Source: a virus
Lineage: Duplodnaviria > Caudoviricetes
Reading direction: 5' to 3' (one strand)
Virus record (IMG/VR): IMGVR_UViG_3300013383_000001
Coordinates: 102,365 to 166,364 of that record
Length of the DNA stretch: 64,000 nt
Positions 1-62,521 of this stretch are shown one piece after another (the first letter of the stretch is position 1; each line of letters starts with the position of its first letter). The notes beneath the pieces were generated by a model, which saw only the letters and a program-made list of their open reading frames with translations, ran no database searches and was not told the DNA's origin. A program made the position numbers and the translations under genes.

Positions 1-1695
1 CATTCATAGATTGTAAATTTCACTAAAGTAAAAACACATGATTTTACTAAATTACCTGATATGTTGGTATCTTCTTATGCTACAGAAATCACAGATAGAA
101 AAGGTTTTTATAAATTATCTATTTCTAATTTTTTACATATATTAGAGCAAGTAAGTCCAGAGGATTATAGACAATTTGTAGACCAAGAAGGTAAGCGACT
201 TCCTCTATCTAAGATAATGAAAAAAGAAGGATCAGAAGAACAAAAGGACTCTGCTAGAAAACTCATATTAGATTTATTTAATAAAATTCCTTTAACCCAG
301 TTTATATGCAAGGGGATTTCTGTAACAGATAGTACTATAACAATACGAACCTCTGTTGGGACATTGTCTAATACATCTAGCTTTGAAGGGACTTACAATA
401 CTATAAATCAATTAGTAAAATTTCAATCGGTTTACAAAGGATTTCAAATTTATGCTAGAAATAATGATGGAGTAATTGATTATTTTTATGCAAATCAACA
501 AGGATTGTCCCCAAAAATGAGAGTAAATAAATATTATAGCACAATTGAGGAATGTTTTAAAGCTGTAGATAGTATTGTGGAAACAGATACATTTAAAAAT
601 AGCTGGCATCCTGAGTTTAGATCTCTCAATACTAATTATTTAATTACTAAATTTGAATCTAAAGAAACATTATATCCGGGACATATTATAAAGATATTAA
701 ATATTCCTATAAATACTAGAGTGTTAGATAGTCGTTTTTCAACGATAATACGTGGGAATTATACTCTCGCAAATTTCATATAGTTATTTGGCACGGATTC
801 TACTAAAGTTTCCAAGACAATAGATAGTATAGAATCTGCTGCTATACTTGCATATTTATTATCTGAAAAAACTCCTGAAGATTAGAGTAAATATACTCTA
901 GATGAAGCACTTGATATAATAAGTAAAGCAAAATCAGAGAATAATTACAAAACCTATTTTGTAACGGATTTTGATAAAGAAAAAGGATATAATTCAATAT
1001 ATGTTTTTGACATGGAAGGAGATGTTGAAGAAGAAGTTGGAGAAAAAAAGCCAGAACCAATAATAAGACAATTACAATCTTTAGCAGATTGGTTTGAAGA
1101 GAAATTTGGAGTACCTACAGAGGTAGTAACAAATTCAGAATTTAATAGCTATTCCCCAGAAGGTGCAGAACGAGCAATATATAGAGATGGAAAAGTTATT
1201 TTAAATGGTTAGACTGCATCTACTAATTCTCAGTTATTTGAATATTCTGTATTGATTTTACAAGCAATAAAATCATAGTATAAAGGATTGTATGATTATA
1301 TACGATAGACTGCAGAAAATATGGATTGGTTTCCTCGAACTTTATTGAACTAGATGGATAGAATAAAATCTGACCAAAATACTGATCCAGATGTTATTCG
1401 AGAAACTGCTATAGATGCTATTCTTGCTTAGTAGTTGAAAAAAATGTTTAAACAAACAACTCGTGAAAAAATATTTGATGGCTAGGTTGAGAAATAGGTT
1501 GAAGAAGTGGTACGAACTATTGTAGATGATGGAAAAACTGACATTGGATAGTTGTATAAAAGAACTTTAGCTAATTTGTTTCAAAATATATTCTCGTATA
1601 AAAAAGAAGGTGCAGGATTACTTCCTTCAACTTTAAAAATAACTGATGTAGCAGAAGAAGATATTAATAAAAAATTTAATTAGAATTGTGGATAA
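1..1695 (+). CDS. Large virion-associated protein, C-terminal part (5' truncated by the window), TAG recoded
   Basis: Frame 1 is open from base 1 to TAA at 1693-1695 apart from about 13 in-frame TAGs. Track ORFs 61..783 and 1012..1212 are fragments of it. Confidence 0.8.
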
Positions 1696-1697
1696 AT

Positions 1698-4600
1698 ATG
1701 AGTGGTGAAAGTTGTTCAATAAATGTAGGAACTCGTACCTTTAATTCATTTCAATTAAGAAATTTAGTCTATTCTACAGATATTTCAGATCCGTTTGCAG
1801 TAATACATGGATTATAGGATTAGGAATTTTATCCTTAGTATGAAACTACATTAAAGTTGTTTGAATTGTAGAAGCAAGGCAGAGAGTTAAGAAAGAAAAT
1901 TAATACTTCTTTTAATACAGGTAATCTTGAGTTAGAATTAGAAGAATCTGCAGATCAAGATATTATTACTATCTAGCAATTAATGCTTAGCGATATATTT
2001 GATGAAGTAAGCTCTGGAAGTAGATTTAATTTGGAAGAATATAAAGCACACACGATTCAACAACTTCAAAATACAGAAGGACTTACTGAAGAGCAAGCAA
2101 GAAAAAAAGTAGAAATATTGATTGATAATTGGATGCAAATTGCAAAAGATTCAGCAGCACTCCACAAAGCAATACAATTATATAATGAAGATGAGACCAA
2201 GTTTGAAGAACTTTGTATGTAGGATGAAGACATAAAACCATATAAATTACTTCTTTCTTAGTTACATGCATCTATAACTAATAGTTTGAATACCTTTATT
2301 TAGAAGGGTATTTTGATGAAGGGATGTAGAATTGTAAATGGTCTCAATTTGGTTAGCGAAATGAAAGATTTGGATAAGAAATTATTCGGACACATTGACA
2401 AAATTATAATTGATAAATACAATGATGTATATATCATTAATTACAAATTCACAGAAGGAGGATTTAAATTATCTACAACAAAATTGGAAAACTGTAGATA
2501 TCAAATGGCTTTATTGACAGAAATGCTTGCAAAAAAAGGGATAAATGTTAGAAATATAAAGTCGTATGTAATTCCTGTTAAGTTAACATATAGCACTCAA
2601 GATGATTCTTTGTAGAATCTTAAAAAAGTATCGGTTGATTCTCCTTTTAATTTATCTATTTCTAACAATAGAAATAGATCTACAAAACATTTAAATACTG
2701 CGCGACATTTTATTGACGCTCCGATTTAGATTAAAACAAGTATGTAGGATGTTAATGCTGTAAAAAAATAGATAGATTGCTTGTTTAGTTCTACTGATAT
2801 AGCAGCTGATGGTGTAACAGTAATTCCAAAAGCATGGATAGCTAGAAATCGATCAAAAATTAAAGTAAGTAATTCCCCTGAATATGCATACGAAGTTAAT
2901 TTTGGAGAAAATGATACTGCATATATAAAAAGCTCTGCTCCTCCCTCAAATAATTAGGAAATATTTGAAGAAATAATAAAAAGACAAAATGATTTATTAG
3001 AAGATGACGATTCAGTAGTAAGAACACTTGTTAAAAATGTAAGAGCAGGAATCAATGGAGAAATGTTTAATTTATGTGAATCTGGAATGTTTGGTAAAGC
3101 AGGTTACTTCTTAAATAATTTATTTGGTCAATACTTTAAAAAAGACAAAGATGCTCCTCAAGAATATGAATTTATTAGAAATGATGTTCTAAATTCTTGT
3201 AATATTATATTAATCAAAAAAATAGGTAAAAATGGTATGCCTGATCAAATAGATGTGTTTAGGATAAGTGGATTTGACTTAGATCAAAAAGTCAATCTAA
3301 AAAGAACATCACAACATATATTTGGAGATATATTAAGTTAGCTTGATTCAAAAGTTAAAGAATCAATCAAATATAAACCTACATACGGCAATATAGAAGC
3401 ACTTGTAACAATGCTTTTATTAAATCAAGTACTTCCTAAAATATCTGGAGATTTCACATTAGGATCAGTCAATGTTGTTTCTACTAATTACACAGGACAA
3501 TATATTCCTTATTCTGCTAGACAATTAAATACTGAACTATTTTCTACAGCAACAGAAGTATTAAATGATTTTTCAGAATTAACTGTTAATAACAATTTCA
3601 GTAATTAGAAATTTGTAGATCCTATTGATTTAGTTGTTGAATAGTTTAGAAATATTATTTCAGATCCTGGAGTATATAATTCTGAAGTTGATAAATACGA
3701 AGACATGGGGTTTGATGATTTATTAACAGTAAACAGTAAAGAAGCTAAGTTAACTCTTCTTAGATCTCTTGCTAAAAAATTAGTTGAAGATAAAAATTGG
3801 TTAGAGAATTTTGAAGCAGTAAGAAGATCTAAAAATGGATCAAGGTGGAATATACTATACAGAAGAATACTAGAAGCGATAGCTTATTATGATGTTGGAG
3901 AAGTAAGTTCTGTGGAAGAAAAAATGTCTTTTGCAGATTCTAAAGGAATGATTTCTAGTAGAATTAGAAATAAAAATGTTCAATTAGTAACTGAATTATA
4001 TACTAGAACTATCAATGAAATATCTGAAAAAGTGCATATTAAATGGGAGCCTATTAGACAAGTATTCTTCTAGTTCTATAAAGATATGGGATATTCTACT
4101 ACGAGGAATGCTGTAATAGGTGACTTAGTTAGAATATTTGATGATCTATATGCTCAAGACGAAAGAGGAGAAAGAACTCTTAGACTTTTAAACCCATACG
4201 ATAATGCAGATATGGCTCAAATTAAAGATAAAAGAGAAATTAAACGTAAATTTCTCAAAAGAGTATTATTTGAGTTCGCAAAGGTAAGATACCCTCAAAA
4301 AGGAATTGCGTTTAACTTTAAGAATGAGAATGATCCCGATCTTCAAGAGTTTATCAATAGACATAGACAGGATTATTTCAATATACCACTCACAAGAGCA
4401 AGTAAAAGTACTCGTAATGTAAAGATGAGTGTTAAAGAGAAATGGAAAGATACAGCTCGCCTTGCAGTTAAAATTATCAAACATCCTAAAGCAGCTTTTG
4501 AAGAACTTTATAATGATGTTGCTAATCCTGATGAAAGAAATTACTATGAAGATGCAGGTATAGGTAGTTTACAAGTTCGCAATAAATTCTGGAAAGGAGA

Positions 4601-6323
4601 TGATCTTGATGAAAGAGATAATTACATTGCTCAACAAGGTGTTAATTACTTTGAAACTAATCTTGAATCATTACTTATTGACTATATAGAAAAAGATATT
4701 CAAACTAAAGGATATTAGAAAGCACTTCTTACAATTAAAGGTGTAATTCTTTAGTTGGATTTATTAAAAGGAAGTCCTAATCTTAAAGCAATTGCAGAAC
4801 AAACTATTAAAGAGATAGAAGACTACGTTAAAGTCAATGTGTTTAATACGTCTATTATGTCTAAGTTGTCTCAATAGATTATGGCAATATTAGCTATTCC
4901 TAAACGTATTGTATCTGATACATTAATTGGAGGCCATGTAGTAGGAGGTGTCCGAGATGTTTTTCAAGGTACTTGGGAGAATATGTTGCGAGTGATTGTT
5001 AAGTTTGATACTAAGCTATCAGCTAAATCTTTAAATAAAGCATACGTTGAAGTAACTAAGAATGTATTTAAAAATGCTAGATCTATCAACATAATTAATC
5101 AATTATGTTAGATATATCGTATTTCTAATGTGGATGTTGCTCGTATATCAGAAGGTTTGAAAACCGATAGAGGTATGGCTAATTTCAAGACTTGGTTATA
5201 TGCTTCTCTTCGTAGACCTGACTTCCTTAATCGTATGGTAATGTTTGTAGCGCATTGTATGGAAGATGGTGTGTATGATGCTTTTGATATCAAAGATGGT
5301 AGATTAGTATATGATTGGAAAAAGGATAAACGATTCAGCATCTTTGCAGCAGGTAAAACAAGCGATCCAAAATATAAAGAATAGATGGGTGCATATTATA
5401 ATGCAGTAAGAGCATATAATGCAGATCACCCTGATGCTACCATTGGATTTAACCCCTTTGAAGAAGGAGCTACACCACTTCCTATGCCGTATTCTTTTAA
5501 TGATGTTGAGAATATTAAAAAGGTTGCAAATAATATATACGGTTCATACGATAGAAGTACTCGGCAAGGAATTGAGAATATATTTATAGGACAGACATTT
5601 GGAATGTTTGCTACTTGGATGAATGGTATATATGCCAACTGGTTTACAAAGCCTGGAACTTACTCTACTGGTTAGTTTGAAATGCAACAAGCTAAAGATG
5701 ATCAGGGTAACTTATTATACTTTGATATAATGGGTAATGTGATTGTTCAAAGAGTAGACACAGATGGTAATGTAAAATATTACTATGATGGAACAGACAC
5801 AGAAGTAACAGAAGGATTGGATAAAATAGTCCCTGTTATGGATAAAGTACCTATTCCAATACAAGGTATCTTCTATACTCTTAAAGAATGTGGTAAAGCC
5901 TTAAAGAATGGAGACTTTAAAGAAGAGATATGGTAGAATGATGTTAATAAAGCTAATCTTAAACGATTAATGGCAGAGCTATTAGCTTGGTTAATATTTG
6001 GAACTATTTATAAGTGTGTTCTCACTCCTGGATTTAAAGAATTTAAGAAAGGAATGAAGGAGCGAGATATACTTACAAATGCAATTACAGAGCTTATTTA
6101 TAAATCATCATCTTCATCATATGATAGTTTTAAAGGATTATATAATATAATAGATTTTGTTGGAAATGCTGATGGAACACCTATTTATAAATAGAATAAT
6201 AGACTACTTATGGATTTAGGTAAAGTTGCTTTAGGAGATAAAGGATTCTTCGATGCTTTTAAAGGTAACATAGCCATATTTAAAAATTTCCAATATTCTA
6301 TATCAGCAGAAATGAAAAAATAA
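1698..6323 (+). CDS. ~1541-aa large virion/cargo-type protein with a degenerate PD-(D/E)XK-like segment, TAG recoded
   Basis: ATG at 1698 lies just after the previous TAA. All frame-3 track fragments (1983..6194) end in TAG and join up to TAA at 6321-6323. Motif GHIDKIIIDKYNDVYIINYK...YQMAL. Confidence 0.8.
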
Positions 6324-7933
6324 TGGGAATACTAGACACTTTAACTGAACATTTAAAGAAACTGAATGGAACTCCTTCTGGTAAACCTTCAAACTTAATA
6401 AGTGAAATTATTTAGGTGGGGGGGGTGAATTTAGTTAAACAACAATTTTCCCCAATGGTAGAAACCTTTTCAAATATGTTTCCATCTTTTACAAATTCGG
6501 GTGAATATACTGTTAAATCTGGAGATAATCTTTGGAATATTGCTAAGAGTCATGGGATAAGTTTAAAAAAATTAAGAGAACTTAATCCACAATAGAAAGG
6601 AGATACTATACATGTTGGAGATAAATTGAAAGTGAAAGATGGGAATAGTTCTAAAGGAATGCATGCAGTAGATATAGTGGAAGAAGAGCAGAGAGAAAAA
6701 GAATATAATAAATCCAATGCTACTGCTATATTTAATTTTAAGCATAATGGATCATTTATAGTTGTAGACAAAGCTAATACTAGATTAACAGTATATGATA
6801 AAAATAACAATCCATTATTTACTACTACAAATATTGCATCTGGAGCTTCTGGGAATGACTACAATACTATAACATATACTGATGATTCTGGAGATCTTAA
6901 GGATATGATGGGTAATAATTCTACTCCCGCCGGAATAACATATATTGGAAGTATATCTGATTATCATGGTCGTCCTTCTTTTACCAGACAGAGACAAAAT
7001 AGAGATGGGTCTCGTGAAGATATTGCTTCTTCTATGCATTATAGTAGTAATACTAGTAAAGCACATATAAGTAATGGATGTATAAGAGTTGGAGGAGACG
7101 ATATGAAGAAAATTGCGAAATACGTAACCGAAGGTACTCCAATTTATGTACTTCCTGAAAAACCTGGATCTAGATTTGTATTACGAGCAGGAAAACTAAA
7201 TTATATTGCAAATAATCCATACGGAGTTGATACTGGTGAGAAGAAGTTATGGGATGATTATAATGTATATATAGATAAATCATATAATCCTATAACTATT
7301 GAACTAAAAAATAGAACACTAGACCCAACTTATAATCACAATGCTACTGTATTTGCAGAAACAATTTCTAGAAATAAATATCAAGTTTAGAAATAGTTTA
7401 ATTTGAGTAATTATGAATACAATAAATTGGCACAACTTGCAATGGGTATTGCTGATCAAGAGTCAAAATTTGGTACTTCTACAAAATATAAGATGAAAAA
7501 TGGAACATCTATGAATTAGGATCTGATAGCTGTAAAACACTTCTTTGTAGATCATCTTATAAAAGGTAAACCTCTTGTTTCAAATAGTAAAGGAATTACT
7601 CAAATTAAATATGGAGATGATATAAAAAACAAGGAGCTACAAAATTTATATAATTAGTTTGGAATACACAGAGGAGATGATTTAGATAGTATTGAAAATA
7701 GTGCAAAAGCCACTATGATTAGACTTGCTTTTATTTATAATTCAGAAATAAAAGGAAGAAATTTTACAGGAGCAGGAAATAAACCTATTTCTCCTTGGGA
7801 TGCACTACTGTATATATATAATGGAACTAAGTATAACTTAACTAATAAGTCTGCAACCCCTGAAGTAAATAAGTATATTAAAAATATAAATCGTTACGCT
7901 AATAATTTCAAATATACAGAATATAGATATTGA
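6323..7933 (+). CDS. 536-aa peptidoglycan-acting protein: LysM + YkuD L,D-transpeptidase + SLT/lysozyme-like domain, TAG recoded
   Basis: TAATG overlap start, 6 in-frame TAGs, TGA stop. LysM: YTVKSGDNLWNIAKSHGISLKKLRELNP. YkuD: IVVDK...TPAG...SMH...SNGCIR. SLT-like: QESKFG...SKGITQI...YNG. Confidence 0.8.
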
Positions 7934-52021: not shown

Positions 52022-52107
52022 AAGTTCAGGAGTCAGTTTTCTAAAGATACCTCTTTACATGTTAACATTGCTGTCATGACTCCTTATTAGAAATTATGAA
52101 TAAAAAA

Positions 52108-58423: not shown

Positions 58424-59168
58424 CTTACAAAACAATTTGTTTTGCTTGGACTATGTCTTAACCATATAGTCAAACTACTTAGGTTGTGGGTATATAGTCT
58501 CTACACATTTATAATGATAAAATCATTAACTTAGCTCGGCGTTCTTGCAATTTATACGGTTTGCACATTCACCGAATTAGCCCACTTCTACATCAGAAGT
58601 TTCCTTCTGTGCACTCATTGCCTTACCTCTATAGTTGTCAGTAAAAGCATGACAATTAGGACAGAGTATTTGTAAATTCTCTATTCTTAAATCATCTTTT
58701 ACACCATTTATATGATGTAGTTCAAGAGCTATAGGTTTACCTAGCCACTCTGTTCTACCACAACATTCACACTTCCTTTCTTTAATCCCTTCATTAAGGA
58801 GCCTATGTCGAAGATGATTTGTTGTTACATAAGTAGAATGTTCAACTAATATTTCTTCTATAGGTTGTTTAGGCTTTATTTGCCTATATCTATCTCCTTG
58901 ATTCCAGGCTTTTCCAGTCATGTGCGAGGTATCTAATTTTAATTCTTTTATCTTTCGTTTAACAGTATCATAATTACTTCCTGCCACTTTTAATCCTATC
59001 TTTCGCAGAACTTCAGCATAAGACATACTTATCTTAACTGCATCTACAAATTGATCATCAGTCCATTTTCTTTTACTCATAATGTGTAATTTATTAATAC
59101 ACAAAATTAATAAAAAGAAATTGTGTTTACCAATTAAACAAAAAGTTAAATGAATTAAAACTTTCTCA
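58424..59168 (-). mobile_element. Group I intron (trnL-UAA / IC3-like, 745 nt) with an HNH ORF in L1
   Basis: IGS GAGU pairs with exon ACUU (U.G). Core AAUUCGGUGAA, CGCCGAGC, UGUAGAGACUA, ACAUAGUCC. Terminal G. Confidence 0.88.
58577..59080 (-). CDS. Intron-encoded HNH homing endonuclease (167 aa)
   Basis: CECCG...LELHHINGVKDDLRIENLQILCPNCH. Start moved to MSKRKW. The 3' end overlaps the ribozyme core. Confidence 0.9.
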   Translation of the reverse strand: MSKRKWTDDQFVDAVKISMSYAEVLRKIGLKVAGSNYDTVKRKIKELKLDTSHMTGKAWNQGDRYRQIKPKQPIEEILVEHSTYVTTNHLRHRLLNEGIKERKCECCGRTEWLGKPIALELHHINGVKDDLRIENLQILCPNCHAFTDNYRGKAMSAQKETSDVEVG

Positions 59169-59212
59169 AAGTCCCTCGTGTCTACCAATTCCACCAATTT
59201 CCCGTAATTTAG

Positions 59213-59469: not shown

Positions 59470-60195
59470 TTATATTTTTGAAATAAATTCTTTCAATTCT
59501 TTTGATTTTGTAGGTAAATCATATATTTTTAACCATTTTCTTATACAATTATCACTAACATTAAAATATTTACCTACTTTAACTATTGAATTTAATTCTT
59601 TGATTTTATTAAGTATTTCTTCTTTGTCAGGTCTTTCAACTTTTCTTTTTATTTTTGATGCACAAGTAGGACAATATTTAGATTCTTTTGTTTTCTTTTC
59701 TACACCACACAATTCACAATAATATTTTTGTGGAGTATTAGCTGAACCACAATAATTGTCAGTTTGACTATGACAATTTGGACATAATATCTAAAGATTG
59801 TCTAACCTATTATCAGTATTATCACCATTTATATGATGTAATTGACATACTAAAAGATTATCTAGCCAATATCCTCCTTTACAGGGGCATTTAGGATTCT
59901 CACATTCATTTTTCTTAATACCTTCTTTAAAGAGCTTCTCTTTTAATTTACTTGATTTTATAGGCTTATTTGTGCCTAAATACTCCTTTGCTGGAATATA
60001 ATTCTCAATCCCTCTTTTTTGTTTAGCTCCATAAGTAAAATGAGAGTAATCTATATTATATTCTTCCAATTTCTTTCTAAGAGTTGCAGAATTATTGCCT
60101 GCTCTTGGGATATTTAATTTATCTAATACCTATGTTAAAGAATCACATTCTTTAATTACAGATTCAATATTTTCTTTTGACCAATTATATTTCAT
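59470..60195 (-). CDS. Free-standing HNH endonuclease (241 aa) with C-terminal Zn finger and HTH, 2 in-frame TAGs
   Basis: Track ORFs 59791..60069 and 59470..59712 join. QLHHINGDNTDNRLDNL[TAG]ILCPNCH. Confidence 0.88.
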
Positions 60196-60210
60196 TTTTA
60201 TTTATATTAG

Positions 60211-60282
60211 CAGGGAATAAAGGAATCAAACCTTTTCCTCTTAATCCAAAGTTAAGTGTGACTATCATTACACCAATTCCCT
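60211..60282 (-). tRNA. tRNA-Gln(UUG), non-canonical T loop UUUGAUU
   Basis: AGGGAAU/AUUCCCU acceptor with G73, CUUAA-CUUUGGA-UUAAG anticodon arm. Confidence 0.8.
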
Positions 60283-60580
60283 GAATATTCAGGGAATACT
60301 ATTCTCACGAACCATACTCCCTTTCTTCATCACCATTCCAATGACAAAATTACCACGACAAATTCAATTCACAAATTAGATTAACTATTTTTTAGTAATC
60401 TTAAAAAGTATTTTTCCTATTCCTGCGAACAGAAGATTGATTACACTACCTGTAAGGAACAGTAGTGCGAGTACTAATATTGCTCCCATATTCTCCAATT
60501 AGAATTACCAAATACGAATTTATATTCATTAGCTTCTTTATAAGTATTGAATCTCTTTATAAAGAAACCATAACTATCTC

Positions 60581-60859
60581 TTACTGTATACATCCTTTTA
60601 TCTGTGCTTGTACATCTTTAGGAAGATATTTCTTATATTCTTTCCCTGATTTAGATATTCTCTTTATATAAAGAGAACCATTCTTTGAGATCCATACAGG
60701 ATATGTTTTACCATCTTTATCTGTGTAGAAATACGGAGTTAATACATCAGACTTAGAGGTTTTCTCAGTTTTAAAAGTATTTCCATTACGGATTACTTTC
60801 TCTGCAAATGTAGGTACACTTAATATAAGTGCAACTATTAGAGTGATTATATATTTCAT
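60581..60859 (-). CDS. Exported hypothetical protein
   Basis: Signal peptide MKYIITLIVALILSVPTFA. Start moved past the terminator. Confidence 0.7.
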   Translation of the reverse strand: MKYIITLIVALILSVPTFAEKVIRNGNTFKTEKTSKSDVLTPYFYTDKDGKTYPVWISKNGSLYIKRISKSGKEYKKYLPKDVQAQIKGCIQ

Positions 60860-60873
60860 ATTTTTAATTGATT

Positions 60874-60910
60874 TAAAAATAAAAAGTGCTGAGAGAAACT
60901 CCCAGCACTT
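60874..60910 (-). terminator. Intrinsic terminator ending the ncRNA array transcript
   Basis: AAGTGCTGGGAG/CTCTCAGCACTT stem plus T-tract. Confidence 0.75.
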
Positions 60911-61036
60911 ACCAATCACTACCCGATTGGCTAGGCTTGCTCATGTTTTAGATGATGGGCTCCCATCATGAAGCGTTGTTATAAAGCCTATAACGGCACC
61001 TCATTAAAACGGTAGCATGCTTACCTAGAGAGTTAT

Positions 61037-61850
61037 TAGTTCCTAGTATGGATTTCACTCCACACTAGGATGTACAACCTATTCATCACGAACTAGTTGC
61101 TTAGATTCATTATTTTCTAATAAAAATTAGTTCCTAGATGAAGTATTACCTTACATCTAGGATTACTAACCTATCTATCACAGACTAGTTAGTTGTGTAA
61201 TTATAAATATAAATTAAAAATTATTACCTACGGGAATTTTAAATCAATTCTTAATGTAAAACTTATCGACATGAAATTATTTATAGACATCTAGCCTCCC
61301 AATCAGGACTTGAACCTGAAACCTACAGTTTAGAAGACTGTTGCTCTATCCAATTGAGCTATTGGGAGTAATTAAGAGTACTATCTATCACAGACTGTAC
61401 TCTTTAAACATAATCAACCAATTAAAAACCATTCAACAATGAACACACCCTGTGTAACCTACATTAATGAATCCCGCATTTATCACGAAGTCGTTCAATT
61501 ACAACAGGGGTGATTAGTTCCTAGACAGAGTTACCAGCTCTATCTAGGATAATTAAGTTAGTTCATCACGAATTTACTTAACGTTTAATCATTCACCAAT
61601 AATTTCAACACAAACAATGAACTAGTTCCCTGTAACGATATTACTCTTTACAGGGATTGCTCAATACATCTATCACAGACATATTGAGAGGAAACCAATT
61701 TATTAACTAACTACAGCTATCTAGTTCCCGAGAAGAATATTACTTCTAACTCGGGATTACTAATCTATTCATCACGAACTGATTAGACCAAAACAAATTC
61801 ACTCAATGACAAATTAGTTCCCAAGGAGAGTAATTAGCTCTCCAAGGGAT
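61037..61850 (-). ncRNA. Array of six tRNA-minihelix-like hairpins (UCC...GGA-A-CUA), five preceded by a conserved GUGAU-loop hairpin
   Basis: Minihelices at 61040-61070, 61131-61162, 61518-61549, 61626-61656, 61725-61756 and 61818-61849. Stems covary while length (~12 bp) and ends are conserved. Confidence 0.7.
61295..61368 (-). tRNA. tRNA-Arg(UCU), embedded in the array
   Basis: CUCCCAA/UUGGGAG acceptor, ACAGU-CUUCUAA-ACUGU anticodon arm, UCAGG-UUCAAGU-CCUGA T arm. Confidence 0.92.
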
Positions 61851-61866
61851 ATTTATGAACAGAAGA

Positions 61867-62175
61867 TTATTCTACTATATCGATAGGAAAAATGTTCACA
61901 TCAAGGATAGGAGATTTTTTAATTGCATAGATGCAAGTATAATCTCCTTTTTGTTCCATCTCAAGATGATCACCGATGACTGCATACTCATTACGAGCGC
62001 AGTATCTACGAATGTAGTCGATGAGGAAATTAGATTCTACACCAACTTGTTCCATGAATTGATTGAGAACTTTCTCAATCATCCAATCTTGGAGTTGAGG
62101 AATGAGATTTCTTTCGATCTTCAGACATCCTACTCTTCCGATCTCATGTGCTGCGAGTACTTTGAATGTTTTCAT
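61867..62175 (-). CDS. Hypothetical early protein
   Basis: ATGA-overlapped ORF. Confidence 0.6.
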   Translation of the reverse strand: MKTFKVLAAHEIGRVGCLKIERNLIPQLQDWMIEKVLNQFMEQVGVESNFLIDYIRRYCARNEYAVIGDHLEMEQKGDYTCIYAIKKSPILDVNIFPIDIVE

Positions 62176-62486
62176 ATCTCTACCATTTGATTGTTTTCAT
62201 CCACGAGATAGGCATCAACGCCTATTTGATTCTCTACTGTTATAATGATGAGATCATCATCTACATCAACAGAGAGACGATTAGAGATCATTCCACACTC
62301 GTTATTTTTAACGAGGTTGATGAGATCTTCGATGTCAATCCACTCATCTATATTATTTACAGATGCGAAGTGGTTGATGACGAATGTGAGTTGCTTGATA
62401 GACATTGCGTTGAAGTCTTCGAGATCTATTTCGAGAGTAGCAACCGTTTCATATTTCGGTTCTACGTTTACATAGAATTTTTTCAT
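62172..62486 (-). CDS. Acidic hypothetical early protein
   Basis: ORF with A-rich leader. Confidence 0.6.
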   Translation of the reverse strand: MKKFYVNVEPKYETVATLEIDLEDFNAMSIKQLTFVINHFASVNNIDEWIDIEDLINLVKNNECGMISNRLSVDVDDDLIIITVENQIGVDAYLVDENNQMVEI

Positions 62487-62521
62487 TGTTGTTTGAGATT
62501 CTTGAGGTTAATAGAGAAGAA

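What the first reader, a model, noticed from the sequence alone, without database searches (positions are those of the whole stretch)
60291..61786. Conserved leader hairpin (GUGAU/GUGA loop) just 5' of both minihelices and real tRNAs
Seen: a hairpin with a variable outer stem, a small AG/UA-type internal loop and a U(U/C)Y-GUGAU-R(A/G)A cap. It occurs at 61075-61099, 61165-61193, 61553-61581, 61660-61688 and 61760-61786, each 2-4 nt before a minihelix. It also occurs at 61374-61404 (5 nt before tRNA-Arg), at 60291-60322 (8 nt before tRNA-Gln, GUGA loop), and as a variant near 61470-61495. The cap stem covaries (UUC/GAA vs UCU/AGA). Inference: a dedicated 5'-processing or protein-binding signal that treats tRNAs and minihelices as one class. 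Alternatives are a boxB/put-like antitermination element or a DNA hairpin promoter.
Basis: partly seen in the sequence, partly recalled or inferred. Interest (0 to 1): 0.75.

Follow-up and report, generated by a model that had tools for sequence, protein, structure and literature searches.

The report
Conserved crAss-phage RNA hairpin before tRNA-likes
The repeated hairpin is real and folds as RNA, but it is not a tRNA-specific signal: it belongs to a widespread, apparently undescribed hairpin family of crAss-like gut phages that elsewhere mostly looks like a transcription-terminator stem-loop, and this phage reuses it as punctuation between tRNA-like RNAs.

Summary
Observation confirmed. Seven hairpins on the minus strand lie 3-11 nt upstream of six minihelices' neighbours, tRNA-Arg and tRNA-Gln. 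Five related phage lineages keep them with strong covariation. The motif is: outer stem, C-G, a 1x1 mismatch (mostly A.A), G.U, 3 covarying pairs, and a GNRA(+U) loop. G.U pairs and GNRA variants (GUGA, GAGA, GCGA, GUAA) point to RNA on the transcribed strand.

The window is the end of a 166-kb, TAG-recoded crAss-like phage. The same hairpin precedes tRNA-Glu in Bacteroides phage crAss001 and tRNA-Met/Glu in IAS virus. However, its 16-nt cap occurs in more than 113 IMG/VR contigs (25 for a control). There it lies mostly between ORFs, about a third to a half of copies have a U-tract, and few are next to tRNAs. In Bacteroidaceae chromosomes it is rare.

Best reading (about 0.4): a terminator-type RNA hairpin reused as inter-unit punctuation, so that RNase P cleavage leaves the upstream RNA ending in a hairpin with a short tail. 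Rivals are a protein-binding site (boxB-like), an RNase P helper, and a DNA-level cassette boundary. No Rfam match and no published description were found. It is testable in crAss001.

The parts
61760..61786 (-). Hairpin H1 (cap UUC-GUGAU-GAA), 3 nt before minihelix M1
61660..61688 (-). Hairpin H2 (cap UCU-GUGAU-AGA), 3-4 nt before minihelix M2. Its outer stem matches the hairpin that precedes a different minihelix in L052/L055, so it is a probable recombinant.
61553..61581 (-). Hairpin H3 (cap UUC-GUGAU-GAA, deviant internal loop), 3-4 nt before minihelix M3
61374..61404 (-). Hairpin H4 (cap UCU-GUGAU-AGA), 5-7 nt before tRNA-Arg(UCU). It is 93-100% conserved across lineages, while the tRNA is only 76% conserved.
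61165..61193 (-). Hairpin H5 (cap UCU-GUGAU-AGA), 2-3 nt before minihelix M5
61075..61099 (-). Hairpin H6 (cap UUC-GUGAU-GAA), 3-4 nt before minihelix M6
60291..60322 (-). Hairpin H7 (cap UUC-GUGA-GAA, true GNRA tetraloop). It lies 62 nt after the stop of a small ORF and 8 nt before tRNA-Gln(UUG).
61819..61849 (-). Minihelix M0, first element of the array, with no hairpin upstream
61726..61756 (-). Minihelix M1
61627..61656 (-). Minihelix M2
61519..61549 (-). Minihelix M3
61448..61509 (-). 62-nt TCC...GGA element with an inner branch.
61294..61368 (-). tRNA-Arg(UCU)
61132..61162 (-). Minihelix M5
61041..61070 (-). Minihelix M6
60884..60910 (-). Canonical terminator hairpin plus T-run that closes the array
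60210..60282 (-). tRNA-Gln(UUG)

Best explanation
The element is an RNA hairpin of a widespread, unannotated family of crAss-like (Crassvirales) phages. The family is defined by a variable outer stem, a C-G pair, a 1x1 purine mismatch, a G.U pair, three covarying pairs and a GNRA(+U) loop. In most phages it works like, or is derived from, the stem-loop of an intergenic terminator or 3'-end hairpin.

In this 166-kb phage clade it has lost the U-tract and has been multiplied as punctuation inside a polycistronic early transcript of tRNA-like minihelices and tRNAs.

Inferred mechanism: RNase P cuts at the 5' end of each tRNA or minihelix, 2-8 nt after the hairpin. The upstream RNA segment then ends in a stable hairpin with a tail too short for 3' exonucleases to load, just like a terminated transcript. 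The hairpin also insulates the folding of neighbouring units.

Shown: the structure, its strand, its conservation, its position and its distribution. Inferred: RNase P cleavage, the protective effect, and polycistronic transcription.
For: RNA-level, sense-strand structure:
- Covariation is strong.
- There are 36 G.U pairs, giving 264 vs 231 of 270 cells paired on the sense vs antisense strand.
- Loop variants are GNRA.

Same family elsewhere behaves as a 3'-end or terminator hairpin:
- The exact cap CAGTCTGTGAAGATAG is found in more than 113 IMG/VR contigs, against 25 for the reversed control.
- 39 distinct copies have 5-8 bp covarying outer stems. All are intergenic and co-oriented with neighbouring ORFs, and many lie 9-50 nt after a stop codon.
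- U-tracts are present in 11/39 GUGA copies, 8/9 GUGAU copies and 12/22 copies in GTDB genomes. One of the latter is the gdhA terminator of Bacteroidaceae MAGs.

Array logic:
- The first minihelix has no hairpin upstream in all five lineages.
- Every interior junction has one.
- The last unit ends in a canonical terminator.
- The tail from hairpin to the next element's 5' end is 2-8 nt.
- The other tRNA-like elements of the genome, and the crAss001 tRNAs, also have unrelated hairpins ending 2-7 nt upstream.

Other points:
- No per-unit promoter motif was found, and spacers are only 31-46 nt.
- The whole 976-nt stretch folds into local hairpins, z = -9.2.
- Hairpins are under purifying selection: 83-100% identity against 54-63% for spacers.
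Against: - No RNA data could be obtained, so neither polycistronic transcription nor RNase P cleavage of the minihelices is shown.
- Stability alone does not explain why a mismatch plus a G.U pair is conserved. That pattern points to recognition by some factor.
- The RNA that the hairpin would protect is the least conserved part (the spacer), unless the upstream minihelix stays attached.
- For real tRNAs, RNase Z would cut the protected piece off.
- In Kolpuevirus one copy lies in a 5' leader, 26 nt before the first ORF of an operon.
- A hairpin only 2-4 nt from the cleavage site might hinder rather than help RNase P (established knowledge: the RNase P protein binds a single-stranded leader).
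Confidence: 0.4

Rival explanations
1. The cap (GNRA loop + G.U + mismatch) is the binding site of a specific phage or host protein. Through it the protein would control termination or antitermination (boxB/nut-like), or it would be an endonuclease that cuts next to the hairpin. The same factor would act at terminator-like copies between ORFs and at the tRNA-like array.
For: - The cap sequence is kept nearly identical across very distant phages, while the outer stems vary freely. Examples are crAss001, IAS virus, this clade, and more than 100 IMG/VR contigs.
- A conserved G.U (23/27) next to a conserved mismatch (23/27) is typical of recognition sites, not of stability design.
- The GNRA(+U) pentaloop resembles the boxB fold (established knowledge of lambda N-boxB).
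- Many copies are terminator hairpins, the natural targets of such control.
Against: - No candidate protein was found. The neighbouring ORFs have no Pfam or PHROG family.
- The minus-strand block shows no RNA-binding or RNase domain other than RNase H. However, one search listed only 25 of 27 families, and the plus-strand genes were barely scanned.
- No boxA-like partner was looked for.
- Typical genomes carry only 1-2 copies.
Confidence: 0.25
2. One reading: a 5'-leader module that helps or directs 5' maturation (by RNase P or another nuclease) of tRNAs and minihelices as one class.
For: - All 7 copies in this genome, and all copies in four related lineages, lie 2-12 nt upstream of a tRNA or tRNA-like element.
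- The same holds for tRNA-Glu in crAss001, for tRNA-Met and tRNA-Glu in IAS virus, and for 5 IMG/VR cases. This is far more than chance.
- The distance to the downstream element is tighter than the distance to the upstream one.
- The Arg-leader hairpin is more conserved than the tRNA behind it.
Against: - Most homologous hairpins elsewhere have no tRNA or stable structure downstream, and many are terminator-like.
- The first minihelix does without a hairpin in all lineages.
- Other tRNAs use unrelated leader hairpins.
- A structured leader so close to the site is expected to weaken binding of the RNase P protein (established knowledge).
Confidence: 0.15
3. The constraint is at DNA level. The hairpin cap would be a boundary of mobile cassettes that drives modular shuffling, like PeSL elements of T4-type phages. 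Alternatively it would be a hairpin promoter for the virion RNA polymerase.
For: - Units are gained and lost between lineages.
- H2 of the window looks like a recombinant between two hairpins.
- The tRNA behind a fully conserved hairpin has been exchanged or has diverged strongly.
- The same cap occurs next to unrelated cargo in many phages.
- PeSLs show that repeated intergenic stem-loops can do this (PMC2839356).
- The phi14:2 virion polymerase prefers single-stranded templates, and its early promoters have no known motif (bioRxiv 10.1101/2020.03.07.982082).
Against: - G.U pairs and GNRA loop variation fit RNA, not the template DNA strand.
- No promoter motif accompanies the hairpins.
- Recombination at repeats can be a side effect of any repeated functional element.
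Confidence: 0.1

Closest known systems
Intrinsic (Rho-independent) terminator hairpins
   Same: A stable stem-loop with a GNRA loop in intergenic regions, co-oriented with the genes. About a third to a half of family members outside this clade are followed by a U-tract.
   Different: The copies in this window have no U-tract (0 of 30 in the clade) and are followed at once by a tRNA-like element. The family also keeps a sequence-specific cap with a mismatch and a G.U pair, which terminators do not need.
PeSL (promoter-early stem-loop) regulatory cassettes of T4-type phages (Arbiol et al. 2010, PMC2839356)
   Same: A repeated, conserved intergenic stem-loop motif in plastic regions of a phage genome. 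It acts as terminator or attenuator and marks the borders of exchangeable small units.
   Different: PeSLs include a sigma-70 promoter and flank small ORFs. No promoter motif was found here, the cargo is tRNA-like RNA, and the PeSL stems are G/C tracts rather than a defined GNRA cap.
Lambda boxB (nut site) hairpin
   Same: A short hairpin whose loop folds like a GNRA tetraloop with one extra base. It is located in leaders and between genes of early transcripts and is read as RNA.
   Different: In boxB the loop is GNRNA with the fourth base flipped out. Here the extra base is a 3' U and is dispensable. No boxA and no N-like protein were identified, and many copies here are themselves terminator-like.
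tRNA punctuation / plant mitochondrial t-elements
   Same: tRNA-like structures inside longer transcripts define RNA ends through RNase P and RNase Z. A hairpin just upstream would become the 3' end of the preceding RNA.
   Different: That is an organellar system. Processing is not shown here, and no conserved upstream hairpin is part of the t-element concept.
T7 early-region RNase III sites
   Same: Hairpins between units of a polycistronic early phage transcript. After cleavage they remain as protective 3' hairpins.
   Different: Those are about 20-bp bipartite stems cut by RNase III inside the hairpin. Here the stem is 11-13 bp, and the proposed cut is outside it, by RNase P.

Membership tests
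Intrinsic terminator | Stable hairpin on the RNA-sense strand | tested here: met
   Folds of -6 to -15 kcal/mol for six of seven copies (H3 only -2.7); covariation
Intrinsic terminator | U-tract directly after the stem | tested here: not met
   0 of 30 distinct copies in this clade have at least 5 T in 7. It is met in 8/9, 11/39 and 12/22 family members elsewhere.
Lambda-type nut/boxB | Short stem with a GNRA-like pentaloop | tested here: inconclusive
   The loop is GNRA or GNRA+U. The pentaloop register differs from GNRNA.
Lambda-type nut/boxB | Cognate arginine-rich N-like protein and a boxA element | not tested
   There are no family hits for the neighbouring ORFs. No dedicated search was made.
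N4-type DNA hairpin promoter | Perfect 5-7 bp hairpin with a 3-nt loop on the template strand | tested here: not met
   Loops are 4-5 nt. Pairing drops from 264 to 231 of 270 cells on the template strand because of 36 G.U pairs.
PeSL cassette | Stem-loop combined with a consensus early promoter | tested here: not met
   Motif search in the 60 nt upstream of 37 hairpins found only the preceding minihelix. The candidate motifs are not repeated elsewhere in the genome.
Any Rfam 15 family | Covariance-model match | tested here: not met
   Only tRNA and chance-level hits at E<=10 over window 59500-62500
CRISPR or TIGR arrays | Identical repeats with unique spacers; for TIGR, dual 8-12-nt repeats, 9-nt spacers and a Nop-domain gene | tested here: not met
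   Outer stems differ between copies and the period is about 95 nt. No Nop domain is among the Pfam hits shown. TIGR features are from PMC12045711.
HDV-like theta ribozymes next to phage tRNAs | Nested double pseudoknot directly 3' of a tRNA | tested here: not met
   No Rfam ribozyme hit. Only 2-4 nt follow the hairpin, which is too short for J4/2 and the P2 strand.

The most novel reading that the evidence does not exclude
The cap (C-G, A.A, G.U, three pairs, GNRA) is the recognition signal of a dedicated trans-acting factor shared by Crassvirales. It would be a crAss-wide RNA control signal for termination, antitermination or 3'-end formation, comparable in rank to lambda nut sites. This clade would have coupled it to tRNA-like minihelices to build an RNase P-punctuated array of early small RNAs.
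Probability: 0.2. Interest if true: 0.8.

Novelty: new variant of a known kind. Interest (0 to 1): 0.5.

Why it matters
crAss-like phages are among the most abundant viruses of the human gut, and almost nothing is known about their RNA signals. This work defines a compact, sequence-specific RNA hairpin shared by a 166-kb recoded phage, the cultured model phage crAss001, IAS virus, Kolpuevirus and more than a hundred uncultured phage contigs. It is absent from Rfam.

Its two uses can be tested directly in the crAss001 / Bacteroides intestinalis system, namely terminator-like between genes and U-tract-less just before tRNAs and tRNA mimics. The result would show how these phages set RNA ends in early transcripts and in tRNA arrays. 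The finding also corrects the narrower idea of a tRNA-specific processing signal.

Tried and rejected
- Known RNA families, including ribozymes: no Rfam hit.
- Per-unit promoters: an EM motif search upstream of 37 hairpins returned only the preceding minihelix end. The recurrent TTGGTGAAT and T(A/G)AATTTGTTTTGG strings are not repeated elsewhere in the genome.
- Loop-loop pairing between GUGAU and the minihelix loops: only M0 offers a complement (read by eye). Rejected.
- K-turn / box C reading of GUGAUGA: it holds for only half of the copies, there is no D box, and other copies read GUGAUAGA. Rejected.
- TIGR/CRISPR-like array: rejected.
- HDV/theta-like ribozyme made of spacer plus hairpin: rejected, because too little sequence follows the hairpin.
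- Generic host terminator motif: rejected. The loose pattern is not enriched in 121 Bacteroidaceae genomes, with about 113 matches against about 127 for the reversed control by my count. Only 2 of 29 sampled matches are real hairpins.
- Phage-encoded RNA-processing enzyme as partner: none was seen among about 95 minus-strand ORFs. The plus-strand genes were not scanned systematically.
- A first protein-based search for relatives with a single ORF found nothing. Relatives came from an alignment query and the large protein collection.
- Resemblance of the cap to the sarcin-ricin loop (AGU..GNGA..GAA): noted from memory only. The strands are symmetric here, so it is not claimed.

Full report
**What is there.** All elements lie on the minus strand, like the three tRNAs of the window. 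Reading 5' to 3' on that strand from 61850 to 61037, the order is:
- minihelix M0
- H1-M1
- H2-M2
- H3-M3
- a 62-nt branched TCC...GGA element
- H4-tRNA-Arg(UCU)
- H5-M5
- H6-M6
- about 130 nt of structured sequence
- a canonical terminator with a T-run at 60910-60884

After two small ORFs comes H7, 8 nt before tRNA-Gln(UUG). The minihelices all start TCC and end GGA-A. The cap pattern occurs 8 times in the window against 1.1 expected. Six of the seven hairpins fold at -6 to -15 kcal/mol; H3 folds at only -2.7.

**Genome context.** The window is the last 64 kb of a complete 166,364-bp virus record with terminal repeats. The genome has 31% G+C. Long genes (up to 3996 codons) appear only if TAG is read as sense.
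- The minus-strand block encodes DNA polymerase A, ligase, primase, helicases and ribonucleotide reductase.
- It also encodes a sigma-70-family protein and a crAss001_48-like protein.
- The polymerase is 45% identical to that of Kolpuevirus and 35-39% identical to IAS virus and crAss001.

The phage is therefore a large, TAG-recoded member of Crassvirales. The array lies 2-3 kb from the right genome end, behind a run of small acidic ORFs of no known family.

**Relatives and covariation.** Homologues of a neighbouring ORF led to four further lineages with the same array:
- L048/L014 (IMG/VR, 167 kb)
- L049-L051 (including a 168.5-kb contig from a baboon gut sample)
- L052/L053
- L055

On 27 distinct hairpins the 10-pair helix is 97.8% paired, and 8 pairs change on both sides. 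The covariation score is 0.69 against 0.27 for shuffles, and slid controls reach only 27-42% paired. Column pair 11-23 is G.U in 23 of 27 copies, and pair 10-24 is unpaired in 23 of 27.

A covariance model finds only the seven known copies in the whole genome. It also finds extra, untrained copies in the relatives with loops GAGA, GCGAU and GUAAU and cap UAC/GUA. So the loop is a GNRA tetraloop with an optional 3' U.

Because of 36 G.U pairs, 264 of 270 helix cells pair on the sense strand but only 231 on the other strand. This argues for an RNA structure in the orientation of the tRNAs and against a template-strand DNA hairpin.

Orthologous hairpins are 83-100% identical, whereas spacers are 54-63% identical. 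The Arg-leader hairpin is essentially invariant although the tRNA behind it is only 76% identical.

**The turn: the family is much wider.** The model hits cultured Crassvirales:
- crAss001 at 1878-1909, 6 nt before tRNA-Glu
- IAS virus, 3 nt before tRNA-Met and 4 nt before tRNA-Glu
- Kolpuevirus twice, not before tRNAs. One copy lies between two ORFs. The other lies 26 nt before the first ORF of an operon. Both are followed by T-runs.

- Among the 80 loci fetched there are 39 distinct copies with 5-8 bp outer stems of unrelated, complementary sequence.
- None lies inside a long ORF.
- They are co-oriented with neighbouring ORFs.
- Many lie 9-50 nt after a stop codon.
- 11 have a U-tract.
- Only 5 are within 15 nt of an ARAGORN tRNA, plus a few tRNA-like sequences.

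The GUGAU form gives 21 hits, 15 with 7-10 bp stems, and 8 of 9 distinct ones carry a U-tract.

In GTDB genomes, 22 of 83 exact hits have at least 5 bp of stem, and 12 of these have a U-tract. They include the gdhA terminator of several Bacteroidaceae MAGs and a prophage-like region of Prevotella corporis.

The motif is nevertheless rare in host chromosomes. A loose pattern is not enriched in 121 Bacteroidaceae genomes, and only 2 of 29 sampled matches are true hairpins. In this clade, by contrast, 0 of 30 distinct copies have a U-tract and all precede a tRNA or tRNA-like element.

**Interpretation.** The hairpin is a selected RNA module of crAss-like phages, not a tRNA-specific device. Its commonest setting elsewhere is that of a terminator or 3'-end hairpin.

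Several observations fit a role as the end-cap of the upstream segment:
- In the array every interior junction has one hairpin.
- The first minihelix has none upstream.
- The last unit ends in an ordinary terminator.
- The hairpin stands 2-8 nt before the 5' end of the next element.

The proposed sequence of events is as follows. RNase P cleavage of the next tRNA-like element would leave a hairpin plus a tail as short as a terminator's U-tail. From established knowledge of PNPase, RNase II and RNase R, such a tail is too short for 3' exonucleases to load. Unrelated hairpins occupy the same position before the other tRNA-like elements of this genome and before crAss001 tRNAs. So 'hairpin, a few nt, RNase P site' is a general design in these phages.

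No promoter motif was found in the 31-46-nt spacers. The whole 976-nt stretch folds into local hairpins with z = -9.2, which fits a polycistronic, heavily structured precursor. All processing steps are inferred, because no RNA data could be obtained.

**What this does not explain.** The conserved mismatch and G.U pair, and the near-identity of the cap across distant phages, suggest recognition by a factor. For that reason a boxB-like or nuclease-binding role is kept as the main rival (0.25). The enrichment next to tRNAs is real, but most family members lack a tRNA.

A DNA-level role as a cassette boundary, as for PeSLs of T4-type phages (PMC2839356), is suggested by unit gain and loss and by a recombinant hairpin. 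It is more likely a side effect of repeated sequence.

**Prior knowledge.** There is no Rfam match. No description was found in the papers searched:
- crAss transcription (bioRxiv 10.1101/2020.03.07.982082). It reports strongly transcribed early intergenic regions in phi14:2 and no motif for early promoters.
- Theta ribozymes (PMC10879173)
- Zeta crAss-like phages (PMC12386605)
- The B. thetaiotaomicron transcriptome (PMC7366714)

Earlier notes of this scan had flagged the minihelix array and the TAG recoding on this genome. A follow-up report on an overlapping stretch exists but was withheld.

Noticed in passing
whole genome; window 1-7933 (+): Long genes (up to 3996 codons) are open only if TAG is read as an amino acid. 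The minus-strand replication block hardly needs it.
   Followed up: partly
window 61041-61756 (-) and L048, L049, L052, L055: Minihelices M1, M2, M5 and M6 are identical, loops included, between lineages whose flanking ORFs are only 41-61% identical in protein. The CUA(A/G) tail after them in this genome is not kept in relatives (CTGA, CTCC, CATG, CCAA).
   Followed up: partly
window 61448-61509 (-): A 62-nt element with a TCC...GGA closing stem and an inner branch, conserved with compensatory changes in L052 and L055. It resembles a minihelix with an insertion.
   Followed up: partly
window 52027-52080 (-); L048 8390-8455 and 8680-8800; L067 2675-2720: A second class of tRNA-leader hairpin with a long stem and an ACAGCAA motif precedes tRNA-Arg(52021). 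It also precedes several tRNAs in relatives and tRNA-Pro in crAss001.
   Followed up: no
window 8000-37500 (-): One ORF in this block matches sigma-70 regions 1.2, 2, 3 and 4, so the phage encodes a full sigma-70-family factor. Its promoters were not identified.
   Followed up: no
L069, L073, L074, L078, L080 (IMG/VR): In several phage contigs the hairpin is followed by a recurrent sequence (...TCAGAAAATGACAAACATGTGGGGCGTAAG...). This may be another conserved RNA or the start of a conserved gene.
   Followed up: no
L245 793-824; L208, L217, L199: The terminator behind glutamate dehydrogenase, convergent with a DAP-dehydrogenase gene, carries exactly the same 16-nt cap as the phage hairpins in some Bacteroidaceae MAGs.
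   Followed up: partly
window 61660-61688 (-) vs L052 6226-6251 and L055 6219-6245: H2 has the outer stem of the hairpin that precedes a TCCTAAG minihelix in relatives, but in the window it is followed by M2. This looks like loss of one unit by recombination between hairpin caps.
   Followed up: partly
L048 7053-7141; L055 6998-7086: ARAGORN calls an 89-nt 'tRNA-Phe(AAA)' after the last minihelix in two relatives. The window has a shorter structured stretch there (60911-61036). Its nature is unclear.
   Followed up: no
window 58577-59197 and 59791-60069 (-): Two HNH endonuclease genes lie next to the tRNA-like region. The first has a clear HNH domain, and the second looks truncated under the standard code.
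   Followed up: partly
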